A program made the position numbers and the translations under genes. A DNA stretch of 42,956 bases, taken from the IMG/VR virus record IMGVR_UViG_2721755643_000001; one strand, given 5' to 3'. The DNA comes from a virus (taxonomy: Duplodnaviria > Heunggongvirae > Uroviricota > Caudoviricetes). The notes beneath the pieces were generated by a model. The model was not told where the DNA came from. It saw nothing but the letters and a program-made list of their open reading frames with translations, and ran no database searches. Below are positions 18,677 through 19,422 of this stretch, piece after piece (positions within the stretch are counted from its first letter, which is position 1; each line of letters begins with the position of its first letter).

Positions 18677-18771
18677 AAAAGTTATTGCATTTTTGCCAAT
18701 AAACTGCTTCAATTCAGGTACGCTTCGCAAAGCTGTATCGCGAGGCGAACCAAGCGCATGAACTTTACCAG

Positions 18772-18795
18772 AACCCGCCATTGAGCGGGTTTTTT
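18772..18795 (+). terminator. tR'-like terminator downstream of the late promoter
   Basis: AACCCGC-CATTGA-GCGGGTT followed by TTTTTT, about 100 bp after the Q stop. Confidence 0.6.
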
Positions 18796-18883
18796 ATACC
18801 TGAAAAACGGCACAGGACGTTAAACGTGCTGGTGGTCAGATGAGTTTGCAGATGTGATGACATATGGTTATTATTCTGCCTCC

Positions 18884-18960
18884 GGCCCTTTAGCTCAGTT
18901 GGTCAGAGCGAGCGACTCATAATCGCCAGGTCGCTGGTTCAAGTCCAGCAAGGGCCACCA
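18884..18960 (+). tRNA. tRNA with CAT anticodon (Ile2-like, ileX/ileZ type)
   Basis: Cloverleaf with 7-bp acceptor GGCCCTT/AAGGGCC, anticodon loop CTCATAA, T-arm GCTGG-TTCAAGT-CCAGC, encoded CCA; close to my recollection of E. coli ileX. Confidence 0.8.
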
Positions 18961-18961
18961 A

Positions 18962-19038
18962 CCACCACTAGCTCATCCGGATAGAGCATCAACCTTCTAA
19001 GTTGACGGTGCGAGGTTCGAGTCCTCGGTGGTGGGCCA
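18962..19038 (+). tRNA. tRNA-Arg (anticodon TCT)
   Basis: Acceptor CCACCAC/GTGGTGG, D-arm GCTC...GAGC, anticodon stem TCAAC/GTTGA with loop CTTCTAA, T-arm CGAGG-TTCGAGT-CCTCG, encoded CCA. Confidence 0.85.
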
Positions 19039-19040
19039 GC

Positions 19041-19116
19041 GCCGACTTAGCTCAGCAGGCAGAGCAACTGACTTGTAATCATCAGGTCACCAGTTCGATT
19101 CCGGTAGTCGGCACCA
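19041..19116 (+). tRNA. tRNA-like with TGT (Thr) anticodon loop but a disrupted anticodon stem
   Basis: Perfect acceptor (GCCGACT/AGTCGGC), D-arm and T-arm (TTCGATT loop) and encoded CCA; anticodon arm ACTGA-CTTGTAA-TCATC pairs at only 3 of 5 positions. Confidence 0.5.
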
Positions 19117-19119
19117 TAT

Positions 19120-19191
19120 GCGGGCATCGTATAATGGCTATTACCTCAGCCTTACAGGCTGATGATGCGGGTTCGATTCCCGCTGCCGCTC
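19120..19191 (+). pseudogene. Degenerate tRNA-like element (anticodon loop CTTACAG), probable pseudo-tRNA
   Basis: Perfect anticodon arm (TCAGC/GCTGA) and T-arm (GCGGG-TTCGATT-CCCGC), but the acceptor stem GCGGGCA/TGCCGCT does not pair in register and there is no CCA. Confidence 0.3.
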
Positions 19192-19399
19192 AAGTTAAAG
19201 TCTTTCAGTCTGCGATGATGGGAAAGCCCGGAGTGACTGAAAGACGTTTGCGTTTTGAATGCTCGTCTTTTTTGCAAAATTGCTGTGCAGAAATACCAAC
19301 CTTCGGGCAGGCGATCATTCATAAGCACTCTGCTTTTATTCCGATTAACTGTGGGTGGTTTGTTGGATAGAGTGCTTTCCTTACTGTAGATTCCGTTGC

Positions 19400-19422
19400 G
19401 CCCGCTTTTGCGGGCTTTTTTT
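19400..19422 (+). terminator. Rho-independent terminator just upstream of the holin gene
   Basis: GCCCGC-TTTT-GCGGGC followed by a T7 run. Confidence 0.75.

What the first reader, a model, noticed from the sequence alone, without database searches (positions are those of the whole stretch)
18677..19422. tRNA array between Q and lysis genes with two atypical members
Two canonical tRNAs (CAT anticodon, Ile2-like; Arg-TCT) are followed 2 nt later by a tRNA-like gene with perfect acceptor, D and T arms and CCA but a TGT anticodon loop on a stem pairing at only 3 of 5 positions (alternatively a 4-bp stem with a 10-nt loop). A fourth element 3 nt further on has perfect anticodon and T arms but a mis-registered acceptor stem and no CCA. 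These may be decaying tRNAs or tRNAs with unusual anticodon-arm geometry.
Basis: seen in the sequence. Interest (0 to 1): 0.5.

Follow-up and report, generated by a model that had tools for sequence, protein, structure and literature searches.

The report
Nuclease-evading phage tRNA-Thr plus dead tRNA-Gly
A lambda-like prophage carries four tRNA genes before its lysis genes: the third is a host threonine tRNA whose two-base stem change matches published changes that let phage tRNAs escape the tRNA-cutting defence enzyme P2 Old, and the fourth is a broken glycine tRNA that annotation pipelines mislabel tRNA-Val.

Summary

- **tRNA3** is the host thrU gene, tRNA-Thr(UGU), with four changes: U16C, U20C, G42U and U43C.
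  - The 42/43 pair unpairs 28:42 and 27:43 and destroys the 3' CNG motif. Govande et al. 2025 (NAR) showed that P2 Old cuts thrU at paired CNG motifs in the anticodon stem. They also showed that resistant phage tRNA-Thr needs both a CNG change and a shorter stem.
  - U16C matches a change that impairs cleavage by the PARIS nuclease AriB.
  - In all of IMG/VR, the 36 thrU-type genes changed at position 42 are all changed at 43 too. None is changed at 43 alone.
  - The prophage encodes Gam, the Old trigger.
  - Phage 21 carries its experimentally protective tRNA-Thr in the same slot.
- **tRNA4** is the host glyT gene with C35A, A38G, a one-base deletion in the acceptor stem, and CCA changed to CAA. 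It has diverged about as fast as the neighbouring spacer, so it is most likely a pseudogene.

Verdict: tRNA3 is a new member of a recently described kind. Its resistance to Old and its function in decoding are inferred, not shown.

The parts
5168..5467 (-). gam, encoding the RecBCD inhibitor Gam, the known trigger of P2 Old
   Evidence: Pfam PF06064 Gam, E=8e-56, 186.8 bits, full length. Its role as Old trigger is from PMC12445682 and the bioRxiv preprint 10.64898/2026.07.10.737580.
18122..18676 (+). Q-like late antiterminator gene (DUF1133 family)
   Evidence: Pfam DUF1133, E=1.6e-101, plus a weak Phage_antitermQ match. PGAP names the identical gene 'DUF1133 family protein'.
18772..18795 (+). 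tR'-like intrinsic terminator downstream of Q (AACCCGC-CATTGA-GCGGGTT followed by a T run)
   Evidence: Read directly from the sequence. The consensus scan did not list it. A near-identical hairpin sits just before the array promoter in relative L035. Phage 21 has an annotated tR' in the same position.
18846..18874 (+). sigma-70-type promoter-like site for the tRNA array (TTGCAG, 17-nt spacer, TATTAT), ending 9 nt before tRNA1
   Evidence: The scan lists it in the overlapping register TTTGCA-18-TATTAT, 9 of 12 matches. The layout TTGCAx / 17 nt / TAT(T/C)AT is kept in more than 25 different upstream sequences whose spacers have diverged. Function is inferred.
18884..18960 (+). tRNA1: tRNA-Ile2-like (anticodon CAT), ileZ homologue. 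Lacks the paired CNG motif.
   Evidence: ARAGORN. Rfam 70.5 bits. PGAP calls it tRNA-Ile. About 88-90% identical to Stx-phage ileZ.
18962..19038 (+). tRNA2: tRNA-Arg(UCU). Lacks the paired CNG motif.
   Evidence: ARAGORN. Rfam 56.4 bits with no mispairs. Its homologue in relatives is tRNA-Lys(UUU) with C33.
19041..19116 (+). tRNA3: tRNA-Thr(UGU). It is host thrU plus U16C, U20C, G42U and U43C, leaving a 3-bp anticodon stem. Proposed Old-resistant replacement tRNA.
   Evidence: Alignment to K-12 thrU. Rfam 59.5 bits, against 73.8 for thrU and 61.5 for the functional phage 21 tRNA-Thr. Allele survey. Determinants from PMC12445682 and PMC12409363.
19120..19191 (+). tRNA4: glyT-derived pseudo-tRNA with C35A (anticodon UCC to UAC), A38G, one C deleted from the 3' acceptor strand, and CCA changed to CAA. 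Annotated 'tRNA-Val' in RefSeq.
   Evidence: Alignment to K-12 glyT and PhiR47_1. Rfam 48.5 bits against 64.9 for glyT. ARAGORN drawing shows a broken acceptor stem. Sister arrays L148-L150 have the same tRNA3 with an intact tRNA-Gly.
19192..19399 (+). conserved, strongly structured spacer, including a long hairpin at about 19200-19245
   Evidence: MFE -77 kcal/mol, z = -3.46 against shuffles. It is 93-94% identical in relatives. No Rfam family matches. Function unknown.
19400..19422 (+). intrinsic terminator closing the tRNA unit
   Evidence: Terminator scan: 6 G-C pairs, 4-nt loop, T run. Conserved in relatives.
19483..19698 (+). S21-type (pinholin) holin gene, the start of the lysis cassette
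   Evidence: ORF and translation. 91% DNA identity to phage 21 S21/R21.

Best explanation
The region is a tRNA unit nested in the late operon of a Gam-encoding lambdoid prophage. It appears to carry its own promoter and terminator. The layout is tR', promoter, tRNA-Ile2(CAU), tRNA-Arg(UCU), tRNA-Thr(UGU), a dead glyT copy, a structured spacer and a terminator.

tRNA3 is a copy of the host thrU gene that differs at four positions.
- G42U removes the G of the 3' CNG motif (C40-A41-G42) and unpairs C28.
- U43C unpairs A27.
- P2 Old, a Toprim nuclease activated when Gam inhibits RecBCD, kills by cutting thrU after C28 and C40, inside the paired CNG motifs of the anticodon stem.
- Published resistant phage tRNA-Thr need both a CNG change and a shortened stem. 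tRNA3 has both.
- I therefore propose that it escapes Old, stays chargeable by ThrRS (G1-C72, C2-G71, G35 and U36 are intact), and keeps ACA codons readable when host thrU is destroyed. There are 169 ACA codons in the 46 ORFs picked by script as likely prophage genes.
- U16C may also reduce cleavage by the PARIS nuclease AriB.

tRNA4 is a glyT copy that lost constraint in this lineage and is decaying. Its 'Val' anticodon comes from a single C35A substitution.

Shown: the sequence changes, their population pattern, the genomic context, and the published determinants.
Inferred: Old or AriB resistance of this allele, its function in decoding, and promoter activity.
For: Sequence identity of tRNA3:
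- tRNA3 differs from K-12 thrU only at positions 16, 20, 42 and 43. Phage PhiR47_1 carries an exact thrU copy in the same slot.

Published determinants:
- PMC12445682: Old cuts thrU at C28 and C40 in paired CNG motifs. Resistance requires CNG alteration together with stem shortening, and neither alone protects. Overexpressing host thrU does not rescue.
- The protective tRNA-Thr of phage 21 has G27.A43 and U28-A42, and sits between tR' and S21. This is the same slot as here, and the window's lysis genes are 91% identical to phage 21's.
- PMC12409363: AriB also targets Thr(UGU), and U16C impairs AriB cleavage.

Population pattern:
- Scans of all IMG/VR: 36 contigs have position 42 not G, and every one also has position 43 not T (29 TC, 7 CC). 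No contig has a change at 43 alone.
- The TC arm occurs on thrU bodies with 0-2 other changes, in at least 6 different array contexts. It is also present in the deposited phage JLK-2012.
- Sister arrays L148-L150 pair the same tRNA3 with an intact tRNA-Gly.
- Among 185,579 species-representative genomes the only tRNA with this arm is on one E. albertii contig that is also an IMG/VR viral contig. The only other hit is a chance non-tRNA match.

Context and scores:
- The prophage encodes Gam.
- Rfam gives tRNA3 59.5 bits, close to the 61.5 bits of the functional phage 21 tRNA-Thr.
- A conserved promoter footprint precedes the array.

tRNA4:
- It has four lesions relative to glyT.
- That is 4-5% divergence, against 6.5% for the adjacent spacer.
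- No lesion is compensated.
Against: - No experiment exists for this allele. The published resistant tRNAs keep a 4-bp stem, whereas this one has only 3 Watson-Crick pairs and may decode poorly.
- The Old site 2 (C40|A41) and the AriB site (UAAUC|A) are unchanged.
- The same array lineage is visibly decaying elsewhere. tRNA4 is dead, VL40 has C72U in tRNA3, and L140 has three lesions in tRNA2, including CCA changed to CUA.
- The complete 42/43 coupling could partly reflect a single ancestral dinucleotide event spread by recombination.
- The preprint 10.64898/2026.07.10.737580 reports that a single resistant Thr(UGU) did not rescue lambda itself from Old.
- Nearest-neighbour folding is uninformative, because even authentic thrU does not fold to a cloverleaf in silico.
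Confidence: 0.62

Rival explanations
1. Both atypical elements are simply decaying pseudo-tRNAs in a degenerating prophage. On this reading the 42/43 change in tRNA3 is a neutral or mildly harmful lesion that hitch-hiked through recombination among lambdoid prophages.
For: - tRNA4 in the same array is clearly damaged.
- Further lesions occur in close relatives: C72U in VL40 and tRNA2 lesions in L140.
- The FDAARGOS_943 copy of the prophage has IS600 in its lysis cassette.
- tRNA3 has diverged from thrU by 4 of 76 positions, similar to the spacer rate.
- A 3-bp anticodon stem is extreme.
- ARAGORN does not call the phage 21/thrU chimeric TC genes as tRNAs.
Against: - The TC/CC arm persists in 36 IMG/VR contigs and at least 6 array contexts, with the rest of the thrU body almost unchanged.
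- There are no single-site intermediates.
- The changed sites are exactly the experimentally defined Old determinants, plus the AriB-relevant U16.
- The Rfam score equals that of the experimentally functional phage 21 tRNA-Thr.
- The acceptor, D and T arms and the CCA end are all intact.
Confidence: 0.2
2. The array serves only codon supplementation for rare A-ending codons (AUA, AGA, ACA, GGA). On this reading the tRNA3 stem change is a tolerated polymorphism unrelated to defence.
For: - The prophage ORFs picked by script use ACA 14.4, AGA 5.6, AUA 6.6 and GGA 13.5 times per 1000 codons. This is roughly twice typical E. coli K-12 usage, a figure from general knowledge rather than computed here.
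- Most related arrays carry exact host thrU and glyT copies: 73 of 128 tRNA3 alleles are identical to thrU.
- This is the classical view of Stx-phage ileZ-argN-argO arrays.
Against: - It does not explain why the variation concentrates on positions 42/43 as a coupled pair, or on U16.
- It does not explain why the array family matches nuclease target sets so well: Lys/Thr/Asn for AriB, and Thr/Gly for Old.
- The two roles are not exclusive. A replacement tRNA must decode ACA anyway.
Confidence: 0.1
3. tRNA4 is not dead. It is a retargeted tRNA with a glyT body and a Val anticodon (UAC) that supplies another Old target, or it acts as a decoy for a tRNA-targeting enzyme.
For: - The bioRxiv preprint 10.64898/2026.07.10.737580 lists Val(UAC) and Gly(UCC) among the preferred in vivo targets of Old.
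- C35A makes the first six of the seven loop bases (CUUACA) the same as those of host tRNA-Val(UAC). A35 and C36 are the main ValRS identity elements. Both the host loop sequence and the identity elements are from general knowledge.
- A38G recurs in apparently functional phage tRNA-Gly genes (L152, JLK-2012).
- A missing CCA end can in principle be rebuilt by the CCA-adding enzyme.
Against: - The one-base deletion leaves a bulged or mispaired acceptor stem.
- The anticodon stem keeps the paired CAG/CUG motif and A37, so it should be as sensitive to Old as glyT.
- All three private lesions are confined to one narrow lineage: 7 of 5,426 E. coli genomes and one IMG/VR contig.
- Divergence matches the neutral spacer.
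Confidence: 0.06

Closest known systems
tRNA-Thr21 of phage 21 and tRNA-Thr6: Old-resistant phage tRNA-Thr(UGU) (Govande et al. 2025, NAR gkaf874, PMC12445682)
   Same: - A phage-encoded tRNA-Thr(UGU).
- The anticodon stem is shortened by loss of the 27:43 pair, and the paired CNG motif is altered.
- In phage 21 the gene sits in the same slot, between tR' and the S21 holin of a lambdoid phage.
   Different: - Here the body is identical to host thrU apart from 4 bases, whereas Thr6 differs from thrU by 12 bases (PMC12445682) and Thr21 by 22 of 76.
- The CNG change is an unpairing (G42U), not a base-pair swap, so two pairs are lost and only 3 remain.
- This allele has not been tested.
- It is accompanied by Ile2, Arg and a dead Gly gene rather than by Asn.
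Host thrU and glyT of the E. coli thrU-tyrU-glyT-thrT-tufB operon
   Same: tRNA3 is 72/76 identical to thrU. tRNA4 is glyT with 3 substitutions and 1 deletion. Many related prophage arrays carry exact copies.
   Different: - In the phage the two genes are 3 nt apart, with no tyrU between them.
- tRNA3 has lost two anticodon-stem pairs.
- tRNA4 has lost its Gly anticodon, an acceptor-stem base, and CCA.
ileZ-argN-argO tRNA arrays of Stx-converting and other lambdoid phages
   Same: The position downstream of Q and tR' and upstream of the lysis (or stx) genes is the same. tRNA1 and tRNA2 are 85-90% identical to ileZ/argN.
   Different: The listed Stx-phage records are annotated with Ile and Arg tRNAs under the match, not the Thr-Gly pair, and match only the first half of this array.
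T5 tRNA variants that bypass PARIS (AriB): Lys(UUU), Thr(UGU), Asn(GUU) (PMC11464382, PMC12409363)
   Same: tRNA3 carries C16, the D-loop change that impairs AriB cleavage when introduced into E. coli tRNA-Lys. Relatives of this array carry Lys(UUU) and Asn(GUU) genes.
   Different: The AriB cleavage context U36-AAUC|A41 is unchanged in tRNA3. The effect of C16 in a Thr tRNA has not been tested.

Membership tests
Bacterial elongator tRNA (Rfam RF00005 cloverleaf) | Covariance-model score above the gathering threshold, and a call by a tRNA finder | tested here: met
   All four elements score 48.5-70.5 bits against a threshold of 29. ARAGORN calls all four.
Bacterial elongator tRNA (Rfam RF00005 cloverleaf) | Five-pair anticodon stem with a 7-nt loop and U33 | tested here: not met
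   tRNA3 has a normal loop (CUUGUAA) but only 3 of 5 stem pairs, with A27.C43 and C28.U42 unpaired. tRNA1, 2 and 4 meet this feature, although tRNA1 also has A27.C43.
Bacterial elongator tRNA (Rfam RF00005 cloverleaf) | Seven-pair acceptor stem and an encoded 3' CCA (universal in E. coli tRNA genes) | tested here: not met
   tRNA4 has a one-base deletion in the 3' strand, leaving either 4 good pairs plus mismatches or 6 pairs with a bulged G, and it ends in CAA. tRNA1-3 meet this feature.
Old-resistant phage tRNA-Thr(UGU) (PMC12445682) | UGU anticodon with intact ThrRS identity elements (G1-C72, C2-G71, G35, U36; identity set from general knowledge) | tested here: met
   All are present in tRNA3.
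Old-resistant phage tRNA-Thr(UGU) (PMC12445682) | Alteration of the paired CNG motif (positions 28-30 and 40-42) in the anticodon stem | tested here: met
   C40-A41-G42 has become C40-A41-U42, and C28 is unpaired. Motif definition.
Old-resistant phage tRNA-Thr(UGU) (PMC12445682) | Shortened anticodon stem (loss of the 27:43 pair) | tested here: met
   U43C gives A27.C43. In IMG/VR this change is always coupled with the change at 42.
Old-resistant phage tRNA-Thr(UGU) (PMC12445682) | Resists Old cleavage and restores ACA decoding or viability in Old+ Gam+ cells | not testable with these tools
   This needs an in vitro cleavage assay and a rescue assay.
Old-resistant phage tRNA-Thr(UGU) (PMC12445682) | Carried by a phage that triggers Old (encodes a RecBCD inhibitor) | tested here: met
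   gam at 5168-5467 on the minus strand, PF06064, E=8e-56.
AriB (PARIS)-resistant phage tRNA (PMC12409363) | Changes at the cleavage context (U39, A41) and/or U16C in the D loop | tested here: inconclusive
   U16C is present, but U36-AAUCA41 is unchanged. The effect of U16C in a Thr tRNA is untested.
tRNA pseudogene (applies to tRNA4) | Clear homology to a functional gene, uncompensated lesions in essential elements, and divergence at about the neutral rate | tested here: met
   Four lesions relative to glyT, affecting the anticodon, position 38, the acceptor stem and CCA. Divergence is 4-5%, against 6.5% in the adjacent spacer. Sister arrays keep an intact gene. Absence of a mature RNA was not testable.

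The most novel reading that the evidence does not exclude
The tRNA arrays that lambdoid phages carry between Q and the holin gene would be modular cassettes with their own promoters, directed against Toprim tRNA nucleases (Old and PARIS). Their members would be recruited as exact copies of host genes (thrU, glyT) and then converted to resistant alleles by minimal mutation.

On this reading, the window's tRNA3 would show that a two-base change is enough. That change leaves only three anticodon-stem pairs, fewer than in any tested resistant tRNA, yet the tRNA would still decode ACA. Together with U16C it could confer dual Old/PARIS resistance.

tRNA4's UAC anticodon would then be a failed or ongoing retargeting towards a further Old target, Val(UAC).
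Probability: 0.25. Interest if true: 0.65.

Novelty: new member of a known kind. Interest (0 to 1): 0.45.

Why it matters
- **A near-isogenic test pair.** If the inference holds, tRNA3 and thrU differ at only two anticodon-stem bases and two D-loop bases. That lets one test what P2 Old and AriB recognise, and how short an anticodon stem can be while the tRNA still decodes.
- **Relevance to prophages.** It would extend the idea of 'phage tRNAs as counter-defence' from lytic phages, phage 21 and HK446 to a widespread family of prophage tRNA arrays in E. coli.
- **The same slot as Shiga toxin genes.** In Stx phages the corresponding position holds stx, so these arrays bear on prophage induction in strains carrying several prophages.
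- **An annotation correction.** The 'tRNA-Val' annotated in the seven RefSeq E. coli genomes listed is a broken glyT copy and should not be counted as a functional tRNA.

Tried and rejected
- **Thermodynamic folding** of tRNA3 against thrU. It is uninformative, because even authentic thrU does not give a cloverleaf as its MFE structure. My script's cloverleaf energies came out below the MFE it reported, so I draw no conclusion from them.
- **The 10-nt-loop alternative register.** It exists in the sequence, but it would consume A44 and G45 of the variable region. Nothing in the comparative data supports it.
- **Apparent compensatory acceptor-stem changes** in the 'diverged' TC group (L052 and relatives). 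I first read these as evidence of selection. They turned out to be a recombinant of the phage 21 tRNA-Thr 5' part with a thrU-TC 3' part, so I dropped that argument.
- **Exact-pattern scan of species-representative genomes** for the window allele: no hits. A broader scan found one E. albertii contig that is also an IMG/VR viral contig, and one chance non-tRNA match.
- **The supplement of PMC12445682** is not held as text, so I could not check whether this allele was in their 245-tRNA library.
- **A literature search for ileZ/argN/argO** returned only irrelevant papers.
- **HK446 tRNA-Thr** did not appear among the 45 best of 628 matching INPHARED records, so it was not compared.
- **Rfam at a permissive threshold** found no known RNA family in the spacer.
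Full report
**1. What is there**

ARAGORN finds four + strand tRNAs at 18884-18960 (CAT), 18962-19038 (Arg-TCT), 19041-19116 (Thr-TGT) and 19120-19191 ('Val-TAC'). Rfam RF00005 scores them 70.5, 56.4, 59.5 and 48.5 bits against a gathering score of 29.
- tRNA3 has non-pairs at 27:43 (A.C) and 28:42 (C.U).
- tRNA4 has a disrupted acceptor stem and ends in CAA.

The one correction is that the T stem of tRNA3 has an A52.C62 mismatch, which host thrU has too.

**2. Context**

The array lies between a Q-like DUF1133 gene at 18122-18676 and an S21-type holin and SAR endolysin. 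The lysis genes are 91% identical to those of phage 21.
- A tR'-like hairpin sits at 18772-18795 (read).
- A promoter-like site sits at 18846-18874. Its layout, TTGCAx / 17 nt / TAT(T/C)AT about 9 nt before tRNA1, is kept in more than 25 different upstream sequences from related arrays while the spacer sequence diverges.
- A strong terminator follows at 19400-19422.

The array therefore looks like an autonomous transcription unit nested in the late operon. That is an inference.

The prophage also encodes integrase, an exonuclease VIII-like protein and Gam (5168-5467, minus strand, PF06064, E=8e-56).

**3. Origin of the two odd genes**

tRNA3 is E. coli K-12 thrU with four changes: T16C, T20C, G42T and T43C. 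tRNA4 is glyT with C35A, A38G, one C deleted from the 3' acceptor strand, and CCA changed to CAA. Phage PhiR47_1 carries exact thrU and glyT copies in the same slot, in the order Q, Met, Lys, Thr, Gly, holin.

The exact window array occurs in only 7 of 5,426 complete E. coli genomes. PGAP annotates it there as tRNA-Ile, Arg, Thr and Val.

**4. Population survey**

Together with loci already held, it gave 128 arrays.
- 73 tRNA3 alleles are identical to thrU.
- 19 carry C16 and C20 with an intact stem. The SerU-LTIIb prophage does too.
- A minority carry changes at 42/43.

Two further scans of the whole of IMG/VR tested whether those two positions change together.
- 36 contigs have position 42 not G. 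All 36 also have position 43 not T (29 TC, 7 CC).
- No contig has a change at 43 alone.

The TC arm occurs on thrU bodies with 0-2 other changes, in at least six array contexts:
- Met-Arg-Thr-Gly
- Met-Thr-Arg-Gly
- Met-?-Thr-Arg(CCG)-Gly
- Thr-Gly alone
- Met-Lys-Thr-Gly
- Asn-Thr-Gly

L148-L150 have tRNA2 and tRNA3 identical to the window's, but an intact tRNA-Gly that is identical to glyT. Their tRNA1 differs from the window's. So the TC allele predates the decay of tRNA4.

Among 185,579 species-representative genomes, the only tRNA with this arm is on one E. albertii contig that is also an IMG/VR viral contig. The only other hit is a chance non-tRNA match. Deposited phage JLK-2012 has the TC arm in a recombinant gene.

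**5. Why positions 42 and 43 matter**

Govande et al. 2025 (PMC12445682) report the following:
- P2 Old, activated when lambda Gam inhibits RecBCD, kills by cutting host tRNA-Thr(UGU), the thrU product, after C28 and C40. Both sites lie inside paired CNG motifs of the anticodon stem.
- Overexpressed thrU does not rescue, but phage tRNA-Thr(UGU) does.
- Resistance needs both a CNG alteration and a shorter stem. U43A alone, G30C/C40G alone and C28U/G42A alone all fail.
- The tRNA-Thr of phage 21 protects.

In the phage 21 genome this tRNA lies between tR' and S21, next to a tRNA-Asn. Its arm has G27.A43 and U28-A42.

The window's tRNA3 combines G42U, which destroys the 3' CNG and unpairs C28, with U43C, which unpairs A27. 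It therefore meets both published criteria by a different and more minimal route.

Belukhina et al. 2025 (PMC12409363) show that the PARIS nuclease AriB also targets Thr(UGU), and that U16C impairs AriB cleavage. tRNA3 has C16, but its AriB site is unchanged.

[quoted passage not shown] It also reports an Old-resistant tRNA-Thr in temperate phage HK446.

The Rfam score of tRNA3 (59.5 bits) is close to that of the functional phage 21 tRNA-Thr (61.5), although below thrU (73.8).

**6. tRNA4**

Its lesions hit the anticodon, position 38, the acceptor stem and CCA, and none is compensated. Its divergence from the glyT-identical allele is 4-5%, similar to the 6.5% of the adjacent spacer (13-14 substitutions in 206 nt). 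Its score drops from 64.9 to 48.5 bits. It keeps the paired CAG/CUG motif and A37, so it would not be Old-resistant.

A38G also occurs in phage tRNA-Gly genes that still look functional (L152, JLK-2012) and may be older than the other lesions. The other three lesions were found only in the window-type arrays (L001, L004 and L140). I read tRNA4 as a pseudogene. The coincidence of its UAC anticodon with an Old target is noted as a low-probability rival.

**7. Codon usage**

The 46 ORFs picked by script as likely prophage genes use ACA 14.4, AGA 5.6, AUA 6.6 and GGA 13.5 times per 1000 codons. From general knowledge, this is about twice K-12 usage. Codon supplementation and nuclease evasion are compatible. 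Heavy use of ACA also makes the phage vulnerable to loss of thrU.

**8. Verdict**

tRNA3 is most likely a functional tRNA-Thr(UGU) that evades Toprim nucleases. It is a new member of a kind described in 2025. tRNA4 is a decaying glyT copy. Resistance, charging and expression remain untested. Overall confidence is about 0.6.

Noticed in passing
window 3830-4008 (+), 16748-16923 (+), 8678-8866 (-): Rfam gathering-level hits elsewhere in the prophage: RalA (RalR antitoxin sRNA, 204 bits), a sok antitoxin RNA next to a 70-aa hok-like ORF (16861-17073), and adjacent C4 antisense and isrK RNAs upstream of an Ash/Rha-like gene.
   Followed up: no
window 18962-19038; L002 2095-2171; L145, L152: The tRNA2 lineage switches identity between relatives. 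It is Arg(UCU) with U33 here and Lys(UUU) with C33 in PhiR47_1 and about 40 other arrays, with a compensatory acceptor change (A3-U70 against G3-C70). In L145 and L152 the homologue has a degenerate anticodon loop that ARAGORN cannot name. The Lys form lacks the AriB site context UAAUCA.
   Followed up: partly
L086 (IMG/VR contig): One thrU-like tRNA3 homologue has G35T, giving anticodon UUU (Lys) on a Thr body, together with A26G.
   Followed up: no
L052, L120, L128 and about 14 others; L166 (E. albertii); L167 (phage JLK-2012, 695-770): These are recombinant tRNA genes. The first 26 nt come from the phage 21 tRNA-Thr and the rest from the thrU-TC allele. They are preceded by a tRNA-Asn identical to phage 21's and followed by a tRNA-Gly with U8C and A38G. 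ARAGORN does not call the chimera, but GenBank annotates it as tRNA-Thr.
   Followed up: partly
window 19192-19399: A conserved 200-nt spacer between tRNA4 and the terminator folds unusually well (MFE -77 kcal/mol, z = -3.46) and contains a long hairpin at about 19200-19245. It matches no Rfam family. L001 has the window-type array, but downstream of about 19226 it carries the PhiR47_1-type version of the spacer, showing recombination inside it.
   Followed up: partly
L001 (NZ_CP065615.1 843791-845555): In E. coli FDAARGOS_943 the same prophage has an IS600 insertion splitting the gene after the holin and the lysozyme gene. In the window the endolysin ORF (19698-20195) is intact.
   Followed up: no
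L008, L018, L153 and many IMG/VR arrays: A common phage allele of the glyT-like gene carries C6T together with G67A. This is a compensatory base-pair change in the acceptor stem and argues that tRNA-Gly is under selection in those arrays.
   Followed up: no
window 19120-19191 and seven RefSeq E. coli genomes (for example NZ_CP065615.1 843210-843280): PGAP annotates the broken glyT copy as 'tRNA-Val'. This is probably a misannotation that inflates tRNA counts.
   Followed up: yes
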